Source: Candidatus Omnitrophota bacterium
GTDB taxonomy: Bacteria; Omnitrophota; Gorgyraeia; VGKH01
Length of the DNA: 64,000 nucleotides
Assembly: GCA_022703055.1 (NCBI GenBank)
Contig: JAKLEP010000001.1
Span: 90,850-154,849, forward strand
Reading direction: 5' to 3'
Shown here piece by piece: positions 54,922-64,000 of the stretch. The notes beneath the pieces were generated by a model. The model saw only the letters and a list, made by a program, of their open reading frames with translations, was not told the origin of the DNA and did not search any database. A program made the translations under genes and the position numbers. Positions within the stretch are counted from its first letter, which is position 1; each line of letters opens with the position of its first letter.

Positions 54922-55956
54922 ATGCAACAGTATTTCTATCTTAAAAAAGAGGATCTTGGCGATTTATTATCGGAGATAAACAAGAGCCACGCTTTATTTA
55001 TCCCAAGTAAAAAAGACGACGATTATATTTATCTCTCCTTTAGCCAGCTTCAGCCCGAAGAGATAATCTACAGCATTTATCGCGGAGTCGAGCCAATAAA
55101 ATCATTCCTTACTCATTCCCGGGAAATTGTTAATGAATATTTTCAGAGTTTTGATTCCTCGGCGGAAGCCAAGCCAATCGCGGTCTTTGGCGTGAAAAAC
55201 TGCGATTTGAGCTCGCTTACCTTGCAGGATTTTGTATTCGAGCAGGGGATAGAGGCGGATCCTATATACAAAAAACGCCGGGAGAATTTACTGATTATCT
55301 CCTCGGATTGTACCGGATTTAAGAAAACCTGTTTTTGCCTTGCGGTAGGAAACAAGCCGTATCCGGAGAAAAATTTTGATATCAATCTTTCGCCGATCAA
55401 TAACGGATTCGTGGTAGAGGTCGGTTCATCAAAGGGCGAAACCTTAATAAGAAGATTAAGCCAGTATTTTACTGCGGCGACTACGGGCCAGATCGCCGGC
55501 TCGAAAATAAAAAGAGATAATGTCGTCAATGATTTGAGCCAGCATTTGGCTTCCGTCAATATGCCGCCAAAGGATGCTCTGCAGAAAAATGTCAGGGAAG
55601 GATATGAATCAGGCGTCTGGAAGGAACAGATGTTGACGTGTGTCGAATGCGGCGCCTGCAATTTTATCTGTCCGTCCTGTCATTGTTTTCTTCTAGCCGA
55701 TGATATGCGGGAGAATAAGTCAAGAAGGATTAGGATCTGGGATTCTTGTTTGTATGCCAATTATTCCAGAGTCGCCGGAGGAGCCAATCCTTTGAATACC
55801 AGGGCTAAGAGGTTGCGCAACAGATTCATGAAGAAATTTGATTTCTTCCCGGATAATTTAGGTCAATTCGGCTGCACCGGCTGCGGAAGATGTATCGAGG
55901 CCTGCCCGGCGAAAATTGACATAAGGGAAGTCTTAAAAGCATTAGCGAAGAAATGA
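54922..55956 (+). CDS. AsrA / sulfhydrogenase beta (HydB)-like iron-sulfur subunit
   Basis: 344 aa. CVECGACNFICPSCHC and CTGCGRCIEACP cluster motifs in the C-terminal third. Its length and layout match anaerobic sulfite reductase subunit A and group 3b hydrogenase beta subunits. Confidence 0.75.
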   Translation: MQQYFYLKKEDLGDLLSEINKSHALFIPSKKDDDYIYLSFSQLQPEEIIYSIYRGVEPIKSFLTHSREIVNEYFQSFDSSAEAKPIAVFGVKNCDLSSLTLQDFVFEQGIEADPIYKKRRENLLIISSDCTGFKKTCFCLAVGNKPYPEKNFDINLSPINNGFVVEVGSSKGETLIRRLSQYFTAATTGQIAGSKIKRDNVVNDLSQHLASVNMPPKDALQKNVREGYESGVWKEQMLTCVECGACNFICPSCHCFLLADDMRENKSRRIRIWDSCLYANYSRVAGGANPLNTRAKRLRNRFMKKFDFFPDNLGQFGCTGCGRCIEACPAKIDIREVLKALAKK

Positions 55957-56768
55957 AAAATATCTATTCCCCCATAAAAGCAGTTATTGAGAATATCACC
56001 GAGGAAACTCCCACGATAAAGACCTTTCATCTTAAGCCTGTAGAGCCTATCGTATTTAGGACGGGACAATTTGTGGAGCTTACCGTTCCCGGGATAGGAG
56101 AGGCTCCTTTTACGCCTTCATCTGATCCTTTTATTAAGGATAGGTTGGAGATAACGATTATGAATGTGGGAAGGGTTACGACAATTTTGCATAATATGAA
56201 ACCGGGAGACGTTGTCGGTATCCGCGGCCCTTATGGGAAAGGCTATCCGGTAGATGATTTTGTTAATAAAGAACTTATAATTGTTGGCGGCGGCGTAGGC
56301 TTGGCGCCGTTACGTTCACTATTGCTTCATTTATTTAACGACATGGATAAATACAAAAGAGTCTCACTTTATTATGGTTCGCGCAGTCCCAAAGATATCG
56401 TCTACAAAAGACTGCTTCCTCAATGGGAAAAAAGAGATAAATTTGATTTAACCACTACCGTAGATATGGGAGACGAAACCTGGAAAGGGCGCGTTGGTCT
56501 AGTTACCACCATACTGAAAGATTTCAAAGTCGATAAAAACCAGGCCAAGGCGATTGTCTGCGGCCCGCCGATAATGATGAAATTCACCACTTTTAAATTG
56601 ATAGACGAAGGCTTTAAGCCTGAGAATCTATATCTTTCCATGGAAAAAAATATGTCTTGCGGTCTTGGAAAATGCGGCCATTGCCGTTTGGGTAAATATT
56701 ATATCTGTAAAGACGGTCCGGTTTTTACCTTTGAGCAGATTAAGGACCTGCATGATATCTGGGATTAA
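55953..56768 (+). CDS. AsrB / sulfhydrogenase gamma (HydG)-like FAD/NAD(P)-binding 2Fe-2S subunit
   Basis: 271 aa. FNR-like fold (RTGQFVEL, GPYG), NAD(P) motif IIVGGGVGLAPLRS, and C-terminal CGLGKCGHC...C. ATGA overlap with the upstream gene. Confidence 0.8.
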   Translation: MKNIYSPIKAVIENITEETPTIKTFHLKPVEPIVFRTGQFVELTVPGIGEAPFTPSSDPFIKDRLEITIMNVGRVTTILHNMKPGDVVGIRGPYGKGYPVDDFVNKELIIVGGGVGLAPLRSLLLHLFNDMDKYKRVSLYYGSRSPKDIVYKRLLPQWEKRDKFDLTTTVDMGDETWKGRVGLVTTILKDFKVDKNQAKAIVCGPPIMMKFTTFKLIDEGFKPENLYLSMEKNMSCGLGKCGHCRLGKYYICKDGPVFTFEQIKDLHDIWD

Positions 56769-56770
56769 AT

Positions 56771-57304
56771 ATGAAGCGCTTATTTATTGATTTAGACAAA
56801 TGTAACCAGTGCCCTGAATGCGTTGTAGCCTGCAGCTATATGTATCATCCTCAGCCTTTTGTGGAAAAAGGCGCAGGCCCAGAGAGAAAATCCAATATGG
56901 GTATAACATCGCTACGCGAATACGCGACTTTCGCACTTTTCTGCAGGCACTGTGAAGAAGCGCCTTGTGTTAATTCTTGTTATCATGACGCTTTAGAGCG
57001 GCAGTCCGACGGGCATCTCAAGCGCTACAAGATGCGTTGCACTAGCTGTAAATCCTGCGCGGTAGCCTGTCCTTTTGGGACGATCTTTCCAGATTTTATT
57101 CCTTATTTAGATTCGCGCTGCGATTATTGTTTAGGTAGAGTTGAAAGCGAGTCTCCGGTTTGCCTTGCTAGCTGTCCATATAAGGCAGTTGAGGTTAAAG
57201 AGGTCAAAGAAGAACCGGAAAACAACATATATTTAGTCGGAGAGCATTTGGCGGTAAAATCAAGAAAGTGGAGCAGGGAAGATATCCAGTTTAAAAAGAA
57301 ATGA
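56771..57304 (+). CDS. HycB-like polyferredoxin (four Cys-cluster motifs)
   Basis: 177 aa. CNQCPECVVAC, CRHCEEAPCVNSC, CTSCKSCAVACP and CDYC...CLASCP. Confidence 0.8.
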   Translation: MKRLFIDLDKCNQCPECVVACSYMYHPQPFVEKGAGPERKSNMGITSLREYATFALFCRHCEEAPCVNSCYHDALERQSDGHLKRYKMRCTSCKSCAVACPFGTIFPDFIPYLDSRCDYCLGRVESESPVCLASCPYKAVEVKEVKEEPENNIYLVGEHLAVKSRKWSREDIQFKKK

Positions 57305-62474: not shown

Positions 62475-62913
62475 TTCAAAGATAGGAATGTCATTGATAG
62501 TTAAGACGATTACGCGTTTGATCGTCGGGCCGATATTGATATTTGGCGCATATATTATGCTACGCGGGCATCTTTCTCCTGGCGGCGGATTCGCCGGTGG
62601 GGTAATTATCGCTTTGTCTTTCGTGCTTTTGATTTTAGCTTTCGGCAGGGATGCTAAAGTTTCAAAAGTATCCATCAATCTTGCCTCTAACTTAGAGAGT
62701 ATCGGAGCGTTGATGTTTTTATGCGTGGCTTTGCTGGGATTTCTGGGAGGTTCGTTTTTCTTAAATATCTTAAACAAAGGCGTTCCTTTCAAATTATTCA
62801 GCGCCGGCACTATACCTTTGAGCAATTTATCCATTGGCCTGAAGGTAGGCGTAGGCCTATTTGCCATATTCTTAGCCTTGGTTATATTGGAAGGGACAAA
62901 GAAGAATAAATGA
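62464..62913 (+). CDS. Na+/H+ antiporter MnhB-domain subunit (MbhF-like)
   Basis: 149 aa. GHLSPGGGFAGG motif and 4 TM helices. Confidence 0.7.
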   Translation: MKDDSKIGMSLIVKTITRLIVGPILIFGAYIMLRGHLSPGGGFAGGVIIALSFVLLILAFGRDAKVSKVSINLASNLESIGALMFLCVALLGFLGGSFFLNILNKGVPFKLFSAGTIPLSNLSIGLKVGVGLFAIFLALVILEGTKKNK

Positions 62914-63248
62914 CGATTTATTTCTTGTGTTTTATTTTGTTTTGCATCGGACTTTACGGGATTTTACGCAAGCGTAATCTCGTGAAGATCATAATCGGTT
63001 TTAGCATCTTAGGGTATGCCATGAATCTATTTATGGTTTTATTAGGCTATCGTTTTCAGGGAAGGGCTCCGATAGATTCGAATGCCCAGGATATATTAAA
63101 TATGGTTGATCCGATACCCCAAGGATTAGTTTTGACTTCGATTGTTATTGGCCTTGGCATAACCGCATTGCTTATTTCTGTCGCTATAAGAATTTATGAA
63201 AAATACGGAACGTTTGATATCACTAAAATAAAGAGGCTTAAAGGCTAA
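62910..63248 (+). CDS. MnhC / NuoK-like subunit (MbhG-like)
   Basis: 112 aa, 3 TM helices. The Y.ILRKRNLVKIIIG..IL pattern is typical of MrpC/NuoK. Confidence 0.75.
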   Translation: MTIYFLCFILFCIGLYGILRKRNLVKIIIGFSILGYAMNLFMVLLGYRFQGRAPIDSNAQDILNMVDPIPQGLVLTSIVIGLGITALLISVAIRIYEKYGTFDITKIKRLKG

Positions 63249-64000
63249 TGCATAATCCGTTTTTTGTGACATATTTTGTGATTATCCCGCTATTGAGTGC
63301 TTTCCTTATTTCTATCATAGGCAAATATGTAAAGCATAGATATGTAGAGATGGTCGCTTCCATATCCTGTTTCTTGCTTTTAGTTTTTTCTTTGCAGGGC
63401 TTGAATATTCTGCGCAAAGCTTCAGATAGCGTTTTGGTTTACAAGCTGGGAGGATGGGCGCTGCCTTTTGGCATTTGTATGGTTTTTGACGGCTTGGCCG
63501 GTTTCATGCTTTTTACCGTCAATTTAATCGCTTTTCTTATCTGTTTATATTCCATAAACTATATGGAAAAATATACCGATAAGCCGAAATTCTTCACTTT
63601 ATTCTTTTTGATGCTTACCGGTATGAATGGTTTGATAATCACCGGAGATCTATTCAATCTATTTGTATTTCTGGAAGTCGCTTCCATATCCAGTTACGCT
63701 CTGGTGGCTTTCGGGACAGAGGCAGAGGAGCTGGAAGCTTCTTTTAAATATGCGATTATGGGTTCAGTTGCTTCGTGTTTTATTTTCCTCGGCATAGCCT
63801 TATTGTATGGATTTGCTTCAACTTTAAATATGGCCGATATGGCCAATGTATTGAGCACAAAACCCAGTAACTGGCTTATTCCGTTTGTGTCGGTGCTTTT
63901 TTTGATGGGGTTCGGATTAAAGGCGGCCCTGGTGCCGTTTCATGGTTGGTTGCCCGACGCCCATTCATCTGCACCGGCTTCGATTTCGGCAATGCTATCG
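63248..64000 (+). CDS. second antiporter-like subunit (MnhD/NuoN/MbhH family), 3' truncated by the window edge
   Basis: Not in the ORF track because it has no stop. The ATG at 63248 overlaps the previous TAA (TAATG). My translation reads MHNPFFVTYFVIIPLL...FNLFVFLEVASISSYALVAF...AALVPFHGWLPDAHSSAPASISAMLS, a typical proton-conducting subunit signature. Confidence 0.75.
   Translation, partial: MHNPFFVTYFVIIPLLSAFLISIIGKYVKHRYVEMVASISCFLLLVFSLQGLNILRKASDSVLVYKLGGWALPFGICMVFDGLAGFMLFTVNLIAFLICLYSINYMEKYTDKPKFFTLFFLMLTGMNGLIITGDLFNLFVFLEVASISSYALVAFGTEAEELEASFKYAIMGSVASCFIFLGIALLYGFASTLNMADMANVLSTKPSNWLIPFVSVLFLMGFGLKAALVPFHGWLPDAHSSAPASISAMLS

What the first reader, a model, noticed from the sequence alone, without database searches (positions are those of the whole stretch)
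54922..64000. Membrane-bound group-4 [NiFe]-hydrogenase/Mrp operon that begins with a sulfhydrogenase-type beta/gamma NAD(P)-binding module
Seen in sequence: at least 12 same-strand genes run from 54922 to the window edge, with 1-11 nt overlaps or gaps of 2 nt or less at every junction, so they are probably one translationally coupled operon. The catalytic subunit keeps both Ni-Fe ligand motifs (RICGICSTSH and DPCYCCTER). The NuoB-like subunit keeps its four Cys. NuoC-, NuoH- and NuoL-like subunits and MnhB/C/D-like subunits are present, so this looks like a functional Mbh/Mrp-type energy-converting hydrogenase rather than an Mbx/complex-I-like derivative. Established knowledge: characterised group-4 enzymes (Mbh, Ech, Coo, Hyc/Hyf) take electrons from ferredoxin, CO dehydrogenase or formate dehydrogenase. 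AsrA/HydB-like and AsrB/HydG-like subunits (FAD/NAD(P) fold plus 2Fe-2S) are the diaphorase module of soluble group 3b sulfhydrogenases and of anaerobic sulfite reductase. Here that module opens the operon and is followed by a four-cluster HycB-like ferredoxin that could wire it to the NuoB-like subunit. Inference: an ion-translocating H2:NAD(P)+ oxidoreductase. The gap of about 90 mV between H2 (-414 mV) and NAD(P)H (-320 mV) could be coupled to ion pumping, or ion influx could drive H2 evolution from NAD(P)H. I do not know of a characterised enzyme with this subunit combination. Gene order also differs from Pyrococcus mbh, because the Mrp genes come last. No NuoI/MbhN/HycF-type 2x[4Fe-4S] subunit lies within the window.
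Basis: partly seen in the sequence, partly recalled or inferred. Interest (0 to 1): 0.75.

Follow-up and report, generated by a model that had tools for sequence, protein, structure and literature searches.

The report
Known "Hun" membrane hydrogenase operon
This is a real, intact operon for a membrane-bound nickel-iron hydrogenase with an NAD(P)H-type flavoprotein module, but the same 16-gene cluster was already described and named "Hun" in 2021, in this phylum among others, and what feeds it electrons is still untested.

Summary
Twelve tightly packed same-strand genes run from 54922 to the window edge. They encode SHI-beta/AsrA-like and SHI-gamma/AsrB-like proteins, a HycB-like polyferredoxin, NuoH/B/C-like subunits, a [NiFe] large subunit with intact motifs, and Mrp-type membrane subunits. 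The parent contig adds four more subunits, including the "missing" HycF/NuoI-type protein, then a HycI protease and Rnf genes.

The novelty claim fails. Glass et al. (bioRxiv 10.1101/536078) named this 16-gene operon Hun (HunA-P). They described AsrA/AsrB-like HunAB and the diagnostic CGIC/CYCC motifs in HunG, and listed it in Omnitrophica, Atribacteria, Elusimicrobia, Bacteroidetes, Firmicutes and cultured Kosmotoga. Two other papers noted the same gene combination. My scan found at least 120 genomes from more than 20 lineages with the same order; HunB precedes HunC in 52 of 57 assessable loci.

The NAD(P)H-coupling idea remains reasonable and untested. FAD, NAD(P) and 2Fe-2S motifs of HunB are conserved across lineages. 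Its model best matches the NADPH-bound P. furiosus SHI gamma subunit. Published work instead assumes ferredoxin. I rate identity as Hun at about 0.95 and NAD(P)H as partner at about 0.55.

The parts
54745..54790 (+). Intrinsic-terminator-like hairpin that ends the upstream gene pair
   Evidence: Read directly: GCGCCAGTTAATT, a 9-nt loop, AATTAACTGGCGC, then TTATTTCTT. The scan did not list it because the loop exceeds 8 nt.
54807..54836 (+). Candidate sigma-70-type promoter of the operon
   Evidence: TTGACA-N16-TATATT, 11 of 12 matches with a TG extension. It is the best site in 54000-64000. Consensus match only.
54922..55956 (+). hunA: SHI-beta/AsrA-like Fe-S protein, 344 aa, 15 Cys
   Evidence: Pfam Fer4_22 E = 9e-32. 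NCBIfam ShyB 179 bits, HydB 143 and AsrA 112, all below cut-off. PDB 9nez_B sulfhydrogenase 1 beta E = 1.7e-33. All 15 Cys are at least 90% conserved in 33 sequences.
55953..56768 (+). hunB: SHI-gamma/AsrB-like flavoprotein, 271 aa, with FAD, NAD(P) site and [2Fe-2S]
   Evidence: Pfam FAD_binding_6, NAD_binding_1 and DHODB_Fe-S_bind. PDB 9nez_C E = 2.5e-58. AlphaFold model pLDDT 82, best fold match NADPH-bound SHI 9nf0_C with TM 0.84. The GGGVGLAPLRS and VCGPPIMMKF motifs and C236/241/244/252 are conserved.
56771..57304 (+). hunC: HycB/CooF-like polyferredoxin, 177 aa, 16 Cys = four [4Fe-4S] motifs
   Evidence: Pfam Fer4_11. PDB best hits are HDCR HycB4/HycB3 and FHL HycB 7z0s_B. The two central clusters are invariant in 52 sequences. 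The outer two are present in most.
57301..58209 (+). hunD: NuoH/HycD/MbhM-like membrane subunit, 302 aa
   Evidence: Pfam NADHdh E = 1e-58.
58211..58636 (+). hunE: NuoB-like hydrogenase small subunit, 141 aa
   Evidence: Pfam Oxidored_q6 E = 1e-26. C22, C25, C89 and C119 are invariant in 80 sequences.
58633..59103 (+). hunF: NuoC-like subunit, 156 aa
   Evidence: Pfam Complex1_30kDa E = 2.5e-28.
59100..60290 (+). hunG: [NiFe] large subunit, 396 aa, with L1 RICGICSTSH, L2 DPCYCCTER and a 36-residue C-terminal extension
   Evidence: Pfam Complex1_49kDa + NiFeSe_Hases. PDB 6cfw_L MbhL E = 3.8e-90 and 7z0s_E HycE E = 5.6e-82. The CYCC motif is invariant in 104 homologues. The protein is 100% identical to an NCBI Candidatus Omnitrophota MAG protein.
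60287..61933 (+). hunH: NuoL/MrpA-like antiporter subunit, 548 aa
   Evidence: Pfam Proton_antipo_M E = 6e-56.
61935..62474 (+). hunI: MbhD + MbhE-like (MrpA C-terminal-like) subunit, 179 aa
   Evidence: Pfam MbhD and MbhE.
62464..62913 (+). hunJ: MnhB-like subunit, 149 aa
   Evidence: Pfam MnhB E = 2e-27.
62910..63248 (+). hunK: MnhC/NuoK-like subunit, 112 aa
   Evidence: PF00420 Oxidored_q2 on the identical gene in L001.
63248..64000 (+). hunL: MnhD/NuoM-like subunit, cut by the window edge (503 aa on the parent contig)
   Evidence: L001 14149-15660 carries Proton_antipo_M. On L001 the operon continues with hunM (MnhE), hunN (MrpF), hunO (MnhG), hunP (206-aa HycF/NuoI-like; 7z0s_F E = 4e-22) and a HycI protease.

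Best explanation
**Identity.** This is the first 12 genes of a hun operon (HunA-P) of a Candidatus Omnitrophota bacterium. It encodes a membrane-bound, Mrp-linked [NiFe] hydrogenase.

**Shown.** All cofactor-binding motifs are intact. The order A-P is conserved across many lineages.

**Inferred mechanism.**
- HunB binds FAD and exchanges a hydride with NAD(P)(H), probably NADP(H).
- Electrons pass through its [2Fe-2S] cluster and the clusters of HunA (15 conserved Cys, read here as about three [4Fe-4S]).
- They continue through the HycB-like HunC, the HycF-like HunP and the NuoB-like HunE to the Ni-Fe site of HunG.
- HunD, HunH-O (NuoH, NuoL/Mrp-like) couple this reaction reversibly to H+/Na+ translocation.

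**Inferred physiology.**
- With H2 in excess, the enzyme would make NAD(P)H and pump ions. From standard potentials of -414 and -320 mV, the reaction yields about 18 kJ/mol.
- At low H2, or when driven by the ion gradient, it would vent NAD(P)H as H2.
- The neighbouring Rnf complex would link NADH and ferredoxin.

**Confidence.** Identity as Hun is about 0.95. NAD(P)H as the physiological partner is about 0.55, and that is the figure given for the whole statement.
For: **Identity.**
- The gene content and order equal the published 16-subunit Hun description, including the CGIC/CYCC motifs and occurrence in Omnitrophica.
- In 120 genome loci carrying the motif, the order A-P recurs.
- HunB precedes HunC in 52 of 57 assessable loci. 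HunA precedes HunB in 31 of 31.
- HunG forms a compact clade. Among 1.84 billion representatives, only one full-length cluster shares CYCC. Identity then falls to 48% or less.

**NAD(P)H coupling.**
- HunB has the FNR-type motifs GEAPFTPSS, GRVT, GGGVGLAPLRS and VCGPPIMMKF, plus four [2Fe-2S] Cys. All are at least 90% conserved in 46 sequences from many lineages.
- Most residues of these motifs are invariant in 36 database homologues.
- A basic residue (R or K, 46 of 46) follows the invariant G142, as in NADPH-dependent SHI gamma.
- The model (pLDDT 82) best matches the NADPH-bound SHI gamma chain 9nf0_C at TM 0.84. All further top hits are NAD(P)H flavoenzymes.
- The wiring resembles formate hydrogenlyase. 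HunC matches HycB-type proteins and HunP matches HycF.

**Context.** A H+-PPase gene lies upstream and rnf genes lie 2.7 kb downstream.
Against: - I found no biochemical data for any Hun enzyme in the searched literature.
- The authors who named Hun propose ferredoxin as the donor through HunABC. HydDB lists group 4g as putatively ferredoxin-coupled.
- H2 evolution from NAD(P)H is endergonic under standard conditions.
- Some Hun loci lack HunAB (L029, L113). Others carry a molybdopterin-like protein between HunB and HunC. The input module is therefore exchangeable, and HunC alone may accept electrons.
- The NADP-versus-NAD call rests on one loop and is weak.
- I could not model the multi-subunit Fe-S chain.
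Confidence: 0.55

Rival explanations
1. This is a ferredoxin-coupled Hun, as published. Reduced ferredoxin docks on HunA or HunC. HunABC act only as an Fe-S wire to the Ni-Fe site. The enzyme works like Mbh, evolving H2 and pumping ions.
For: - This is the proposal of Glass et al. and the HydDB default for group 4g.
- Omnitrophota papers assume it.
- The large subunit is closest to ferredoxin-dependent MbhL, 6cfw_L at E = 3.8e-90.
- HunAB-less variants exist.
Against: - A pure wire would not need FAD and NAD(P) motifs conserved at 90% or more across many lineages.
- The characterised relatives of HunB named in the PDB hits use NAD(P)(H): SHI gamma, PyrK and NqrF.
- Mbh itself needs no such module; its donor site is MbhN. 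That statement rests on established knowledge.
Confidence: 0.25
2. This is a two-donor or redox-hub enzyme. NAD(P)H enters at HunB and ferredoxin enters at HunA or HunC. In some lineages a molybdopterin-protein substrate such as formate enters as well. All feed, or are fed by, the same hydrogenase, possibly in a confurcation-like manner.
For: - The input end is modular: AB-C, AB-Mo-C, Mo-C and C-only variants all occur.
- The cytoplasmic arm carries many Fe-S motifs: 15 Cys in HunA, 16 in HunC, and 8 plus 4 conserved Cys in HunP.
- The Saganbacteria supplement likens AsrA/AsrB/CooF-like genes to a NuoE/NuoF-type module next to an Fdh-like gene.
Against: - The flavin of PyrK/NfnA-type proteins is not the bifurcating flavin in Nfn (established knowledge).
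- No second flavoprotein is present in the operon.
- This window has no molybdopterin gene among the ORFs scanned.
Confidence: 0.12
3. HunAB is a sulfur-related reductase module. It would be either a true AsrAB sulfite reductase partner or a sulfhydrogenase-like S0/polysulfide reductase. H2 or the ion gradient would then be linked to sulfur reduction.
For: - NCBIfam's best hit for HunB is AsrB at 244.7 bits.
- JGI names many homologues "sulfite reductase subunit B".
- The PDB relatives are called sulfhydrogenase.
Against: - All scores are below the equivalog cut-offs: AsrB 244.7 against 288.6, and AsrA 112 against 323.
- No AsrC or siroheme gene was found. All window ORFs of at least 150 aa upstream of the operon were scanned. 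None appears in the precomputed Pfam labels of the downstream 7 kb.
- Glass et al. also note that AsrC is missing.
- HunG keeps the full Ni-Fe ligand set, unlike the sulfane reductase Mbs.
Confidence: 0.04

Closest known systems
Hun (Ni-Fe hydrogenase-Na+/H+ antiporter supercomplex) of Atribacteria and other bacteria, Glass et al., bioRxiv 10.1101/536078
   Same: Sixteen genes in the same order. HunAB are AsrA/AsrB-like and HunC is a ferredoxin. HunG has CGIC and CYCC motifs. An Mrp-like module follows and HunP comes last. Omnitrophica are listed among the hosts.
   Different: Nothing structural differs. The published functional model uses ferredoxin as donor. The conserved NAD(P) site argues for NAD(P)H instead, or in addition.
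Pyrococcus furiosus Mbh (group 4d; PDB 6cfw)
   Same: It is the closest solved large subunit, E = 3.8e-90. It shares NuoB/C/H/L-like and Mrp-type subunits, so proton reduction is probably coupled to ion translocation.
   Different: - Mbh has no HunABC module and takes ferredoxin directly (established knowledge).
- Its Mrp-type genes come first in mbhA-N (established knowledge).
- The solved MbhL chain (6cfw_L) ends at the L2 motif. HunG has a 36-residue extension and a HycI protease gene.
E. coli formate hydrogenlyase (group 4a; PDB 7z0s)
   Same: It has a HycB-like polyferredoxin, a HycF-like subunit (E = 4e-22) and a HycE-like large subunit (E = 5.6e-82) with a C-terminal extension. A HycI-type protease gene is present. 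The logic is the same: a soluble dehydrogenase feeds HycB.
   Different: The dehydrogenase is a flavoprotein/Fe-S pair rather than FdhF. A full Mrp module is present.
Pyrococcus furiosus sulfhydrogenase I beta/gamma subunits (group 3b; PDB 9nez, 9nf0)
   Same: They are homologous at E = 1.7e-33 (beta) and 2.5e-58 (gamma). They share Cys patterns and FAD/NAD(P) motifs. The fold match has TM 0.84-0.86.
   Different: In SHI these subunits serve a soluble group 3 hydrogenase. Here they sit in an operon with a membrane-bound group 4 enzyme. Scores are far below the NCBIfam equivalog cut-offs.
"Mbh-Mrp-oxidoreductase type" hydrogenases of Saganbacteria and Elusimicrobia (PMC6349859; bioRxiv 10.1101/765248)
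   Same: asrA-like, asrB-like and cooF-like genes lie next to a group 4 Mrp-linked hydrogenase whose nearest relatives are in Omnitrophica and Zixibacteria.
   Different: Those loci also carry a molybdopterin oxidoreductase gene. It is absent here but present in 8 of the loci I examined in detail.

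Membership tests
Hun operon (Glass et al.) | Sixteen co-directional genes hunA-P in the order AsrAB-like, ferredoxin, NuoH/B/C/D-like, Mrp-like, terminal ferredoxin | tested here: met
   The window has A-L. The parent contig L001 has M-P. The same order recurs in 120 genome loci.
Hun operon (Glass et al.) | HunG metal-binding motifs CGIC and CYCC | tested here: met
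   RICGICSTSH and DPCYCCTER. CYCC is invariant in 104 homologues. Among the top 150 representatives, it occurs in only one full-length 50% cluster.
Hun operon (Glass et al.) | HunAB similar to AsrA/AsrB, with no AsrC | tested here: met
   NCBIfam AsrA and AsrB hits. No NIR_SIR-type gene among the window ORFs scanned, nor in the precomputed labels of L001.
Group 4 [NiFe] hydrogenase (true hydrogenase, not Mbx/Mbs/Ehr/complex I) | Both CxxC Ni-Fe ligand pairs in the NuoD-like subunit, and a four-Cys proximal cluster in the NuoB-like subunit | tested here: met
   C65/C68 and C354/C357. HunE has C22/C25/C89/C119.
HydDB subgroup 4g | Assignment by the HydDB classifier or sequence-similarity network | not testable with these tools
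   HydDB is not available here. Papers assign the Omnitrophota enzymes and HunG to 4g, and say HunG is distant from other 4g sequences. HydDB calls 4g loosely clustered and uncharacterised.
Mbh, group 4d (P. furiosus type) | A 14-gene mbhA-N layout with direct ferredoxin input at MbhN and no extra dehydrogenase module | tested here: not met
   A three-gene input module is added and the Mrp genes come last. Large-subunit similarity is high, but HunG is a separate clade.
Formate hydrogenlyase, group 4a, or formate-respiring group 4b | A molybdopterin formate dehydrogenase subunit feeding HycB | tested here: not met
   No molybdopterin gene lies in the operon or among the window ORFs scanned. Some other Hun loci do have a divergent one.
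Sulfhydrogenase beta/gamma (NCBIfam HydB/ShyB, HydG/ShyC equivalogs) | Score at or above the equivalog cut-off, and partnership with group 3b alpha/delta subunits | tested here: not met
   179 against 690 and 143 against 750 for HunA. 196 against 650 and 191 against 600 for HunB. The partner is a group 4 enzyme. The proteins are homologous but not equivalogs.
Anaerobic sulfite reductase AsrABC | AsrA and AsrB at equivalog score, with an adjacent siroheme subunit AsrC | tested here: not met
   112 against 323 and 244.7 against 288.6. No AsrC was found.
FNR-superfamily NAD(P)H flavoprotein (PyrK/HydG type) | An FAD-binding barrel, a GGxGxxP and CGPxxM nucleotide site, and a C-terminal four-Cys [2Fe-2S] | tested here: met
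   Pfam domains. Motif conservation. Fold match to NADPH-bound SHI gamma. Actual nucleotide binding is not testable here.

The most novel reading that the evidence does not exclude
Hun would be the first group 4 [NiFe] hydrogenase whose direct redox partner is NAD(P)(H). It would be a reversible, ion-translocating H2:NAD(P)+ oxidoreductase. In effect it would be a complex-I-like machine that uses protons instead of quinone. Together with the adjacent Rnf complex, it would let anaerobes in more than 20 lineages move electrons between H2, NAD(P)H and ferredoxin without flavin-based bifurcation.
Probability: 0.4. Interest if true: 0.75.

Novelty: already known. Interest (0 to 1): 0.35.

Why it matters
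As a discovery it adds little. The operon, its odd AsrAB-like module and its CYCC motif were published and named, and Omnitrophota were listed as hosts.

What remains open is biochemical. No Hun enzyme has been characterised in the literature I could search. The enzyme sits in HydDB's "unknown function" group 4g. My survey shows it in at least 120 species-level genomes from more than 20 lineages of anaerobes.

If the conserved NAD(P) site is used, models of H2 metabolism for Omnitrophota, Atribacterota, Cloacimonadota, Bacteroidales, Marinimicrobia, WOR-3 and others would need changing. Those models currently assume ferredoxin-driven H2 evolution. A new energy-conserving link between H2 and pyridine nucleotides would be established. 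Glass et al. report the operon in cultured Kosmotoga, which makes this testable.

Tried and rejected
- **Rfam scan of the whole window.** It found only two tRNAs and no riboswitch or leader near the operon.
- **Search for a paper on the 2025 SHI structures (9nez/9nf0).** There were no hits in the library. Cluster counts for the beta subunit therefore rest on Cys patterns only.
- **Searches for later work on Hun or on Kosmotoga NiFe/Mrp enzymes.** They returned only the Glass et al. preprint. A search with asrB + Mrp + NiFe returned one further relevant paper.
- **Nobu et al. 2020.** I checked it for such complexes and found nothing relevant.
- **A true AsrABC sulfite reductase.** Rejected, because no AsrC is present and scores are below cut-off.
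- **A formate hydrogenlyase.** Rejected for this window, because it has no molybdopterin gene.
- **Conservation of the upstream NikR/porin genes next to hun.** No hits in the other loci, but most 8-kb blocks carry little upstream DNA, so this is uninformative.
- **Internal promoters or terminators between hunB and hunD.** They are at chance level, and the junctions are a 2-nt gap and a 4-nt overlap.
- **Not possible here.** HydDB classification, AlphaFold-multimer modelling of the Fe-S chain, and a formal large-subunit phylogeny with reference sequences.

Full report
**Observation**

The region 54922-64000 holds twelve + strand ORFs. Their junctions are overlaps of 1, 4 or 11 nt, or gaps of 1-2 nt.

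Pfam and NCBIfam assign the genes as follows:
- a Fer4_22 Fe-S protein of the sulfhydrogenase-beta/AsrA family
- an FAD_binding_6 / NAD_binding_1 / DHODB_Fe-S_bind flavoprotein of the sulfhydrogenase-gamma/AsrB family
- a Fer4_11 polyferredoxin
- NuoH-, NuoB- and NuoC-like subunits
- a NuoD-like [NiFe] large subunit
- a NuoL/MrpA-like subunit
- MbhD/E-, MnhB-, MnhC- and MnhD-like subunits

The large subunit carries RICGICSTSH and DPCYCCTER. The NuoB-like subunit has four invariant Cys. The ferredoxin has sixteen Cys in four cluster motifs.

A hairpin with a T tract at about 54745-54790 and the best promoter-like site of the region (54807-54836) precede the first gene. Internal terminator-like sites are at chance level.

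**Source and full extent**

The large subunit is 100% identical to a protein of an NCBI Candidatus Omnitrophota MAG. It lies on a 500-kb JGI contig.

That contig (L001) shows the operon continuing with the rest of MnhD, then MnhE, MrpF and MnhG. A 206-aa 2x[4Fe-4S] protein follows, whose best solved relative is HycF of formate hydrogenlyase (7z0s_F, E = 4e-22).

A HycI-type maturation protease follows. Rnf genes start 2.7 kb further on, and a H+-pyrophosphatase gene lies upstream.

The total is sixteen structural genes.

**It is the published Hun operon**

Glass et al. (bioRxiv 10.1101/536078) described a 16-subunit Ni-Fe hydrogenase-Na+/H+ antiporter supercomplex and named it Hun. Their description matches this window:
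- HunAB resemble AsrA and AsrB, and AsrC is missing.
- HunG was classed 4g by HydDB but is distant from other 4g sequences.
- HunG has the peculiar motif pair CGIC-CYCC.
- Na+/H+ antiporter-like subunits follow.
- The operon occurs in Atribacteria, Firmicutes, Omnitrophica, Elusimicrobia and Bacteroidetes MAGs, and in cultured Kosmotoga.
- Some MAGs have a molybdopterin-domain protein between HunB and HunC.

Other papers had seen the same thing:
- Matheus Carnevali et al. (PMC6349859) described an "enigmatic" group 4 hydrogenase in Saganbacteria whose nearest relatives are in Zixibacteria and Omnitrophica. It has Mrp subunits, a molybdopterin protein, and cooF-, asrA- and asrB-like genes "that might compose an oxidoreductase module". 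Their supplement likens these genes to a NuoE/NuoF-type module.
- Méheust et al. call it the "Mbh-Mrp-oxidoreductase type" in putatively acetogenic Elusimicrobia.
- Omnitrophota papers list it simply as a group 4g, Mrp-linked hydrogenase assumed to use ferredoxin.
- HydDB defines 4g as loosely clustered and uncharacterised.

**Independent check of the family**

I searched HunG against 1.84 billion 50%-identity representatives.
- One full-length cluster shares VDPCYCCTER (59% identity).
- One sister cluster is a NuoC-NuoD fusion with CYSC.
- Identity then falls to 48% or less, and bit scores drop from 550 and 541 to 407.

I then scanned one genome per species for the back-translated DPCYCCTER motif.

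The record titles name these groups:
- Omnitrophota
- Bacteroidota: Bacteroidales, Rikenellaceae, Marinilabiliaceae, Lentimicrobiaceae, Ignavibacteriales, Melioribacter
- Cloacimonadota, Neomarinimicrobiota, WOR-3
- Elusimicrobia and Endomicrobia
- Planctomycetota, including Brocadiaceae and Pirellulaceae
- Spirochaetota, Petrotogales and Thermotogae, Atribacterota, Clostridia
- Nitrospirota, Nitrospinaceae, Latescibacterota, Aminicenantes
- Kiritimatiellia, Victivallales, Calditrichaeota, Margulisiibacteriota
- Fermentibacteraceae, Aegiribacteria and others

tblastn with the sixteen proteins gave these results:
- The order A-B-C-D-E-F-G-H-I-J-K-L-M-N-O-P recurs throughout.
- 57 loci have at least 900 nt upstream of HunC. 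Of these, 52 have HunB.
- In those 52, HunB is adjacent in 44, separated by a 0.6-kb insert in 3, and separated by a 1.6-1.8-kb insert in 5.
- All 31 loci with enough sequence upstream of HunB have HunA.

The long inserts, and the gene directly before HunC in L003, L029 and L031, encode divergent molybdopterin-oxidoreductase-like proteins of about 530-580 aa.

**What the input module looks like**

HunA aligns end to end with P. furiosus sulfhydrogenase I beta (9nez_B, E = 1.7e-33). All 15 of its Cys are at least 90% conserved.

HunB aligns with SHI gamma (9nez_C, E = 2.5e-58).
- In 46 sequences from many lineages, the FNR-type FAD motifs (GEAPFTPSS, GRVT) are at least 90% conserved. So are the nucleotide-site motifs (GGGVGLAPLRS, VCGPPIMMKF) and the four [2Fe-2S] Cys.
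- Most residues of these motifs are invariant in 36 database homologues.
- The loop after the second strand of the nucleotide domain reads G-[A/S/C]-[R/K]-[T/S]-P, with the basic residue in 46 of 46 sequences. SHI gamma has TAR at the same place. This hints at NADP(H), weakly.
- An AlphaFold model (pLDDT 82, pTM 0.81) best matches the NADPH-bound SHI gamma chain (9nf0_C, TM 0.84). The next matches are cytochrome b5 reductases, PyrK, NqrF and NfnA, which are all NAD(P)H enzymes.

HunC matches the HycB proteins of HDCR and formate hydrogenlyase.

HunG resembles HycE in keeping a 36-residue extension after the L2 motif, in an operon with a HycI protease gene. The solved MbhL chain (6cfw_L) ends at the motif.

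**Mechanism**

Shown: cofactor motifs are intact, the module is homologous to SHI beta/gamma, and its linkage to the hydrogenase genes is conserved.

Inferred:
- HunB exchanges a hydride between NAD(P)(H) and FAD.
- Electrons run through the HunB [2Fe-2S] cluster, the HunA clusters, HunC, HunP and HunE to the Ni-Fe site.
- The NuoH/NuoL/Mrp-like subunits couple turnover to ion movement, as in Mbh.

From standard potentials (-414 and -320 mV), H2 oxidation with NAD(P)+ yields about 18 kJ/mol. That is roughly enough for one translocated ion. At low H2 the reaction reverses. This is my arithmetic on textbook values.

With Rnf next door, the pair could interconvert H2, NAD(P)H and ferredoxin. This would suit the predicted acetogenic or fermentative lifestyles of these Omnitrophota.

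The main rival is the published ferredoxin model. It is favoured by the kinship of HunG to MbhL and by the HunAB-less variants. It is disfavoured by the strict conservation of a nucleotide site that a mere wire would not need. A mixed-donor hub is also possible. A sulfur or sulfite reductase role is unlikely, because scores are below cut-off and no AsrC is present.

**Verdict**

This is a real and correctly read operon, and a textbook member of a family that is already published but biochemically uncharacterised. The claim that the subunit combination is unrecognised does not hold.

- Interest is modest at 0.35. The cluster itself is known. The open question is the electron donor and the direction of a very widespread enzyme. 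That question is worthwhile and testable.
- Novelty: already known.

Noticed in passing
window 52388-54712: Directly upstream of hunA lie four same-strand genes: a NikR-type nickel-responsive regulator (144 aa), an OprB-family porin (412 aa), and two small membrane proteins (92 and 103 aa) with no Pfam match. They may form a nickel-uptake or regulation unit serving the hydrogenase. No homologues were seen next to hun in the other loci, but those blocks carry little upstream DNA.
   Followed up: partly
window 47642-49738 and L001 20180-21191: A membrane pyrophosphatase gene (H_PPase) lies 5 kb upstream of hun. An RnfC gene lies 2.7 kb downstream of hunP. Three ion-motive machines therefore sit within about 30 kb.
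   Followed up: no
L013, L015, L027, L054, L098 (between HunB and HunC); L003, L029, L031 (directly before HunC): A divergent molybdopterin-oxidoreductase-like protein of about 530-580 aa is present, with an N-terminal CxxCxxxC...C motif. Its Pfam matches to Molybdop_Fe4S4, Molybdopterin and Molydop_binding are weak. In L029 it appears to replace HunAB.
   Followed up: partly
L024, L048, L052 (Bacteroidetes/Bacteroidales MAGs): A protein of about 155-160 aa with a cyclic-nucleotide-binding domain is inserted between HunB and HunC.
   Followed up: partly
L005, L047, L111, L114: These are short-form loci. HunG is followed directly by the HunP-like ferredoxin, and by HycI in L005 and L047, rather than by the HunH-O Mrp module. 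This suggests a Hun variant without the antiporter genes at that position.
   Followed up: no
L074 (Candidatus Celaenobacter antarcticus, Cloacimonadota): Upstream of HunC lie the C-terminal end of a Pyr_redox_2 protein, which looks GltD/NfnB-like by eye, and an ORF of about 138 aa that looks like a CBS-domain protein by eye. HunAB are absent.
   Followed up: partly
window 60183-60290 (HunG residues 361-396) and L001 17515-17994: HunG has a 36-residue tail after DPCYCCTER, and the operon ends with a HycI-type endopeptidase gene. HycE is similar. The solved MbhL chain ends at the motif.
   Followed up: partly
L001 16835-17455 (HunP): Besides the eight Cys of its two [4Fe-4S] motifs, HunP has four more Cys in two CxxC pairs: C131, C134, C195 and C198. 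They are present in 25 or 26 of 26 homologues. HycF has Cys at the first pair in the printed alignment. These could form an extra metal site.
   Followed up: no
P0121 (representative protein, 583 aa): The nearest non-CYCC relative of HunG is a NuoC-NuoD fusion with DPCYSCTER at 59% identity. It may represent a sister lineage of Hun.
   Followed up: no
window 37986-40796: Two adjacent 460-aa CitMHS-family transporter paralogues lie here. The second starts with TTG.
   Followed up: no
window 15207-15373 (- strand): Two adjacent tRNA genes are the only Rfam matches in the window.
   Followed up: no
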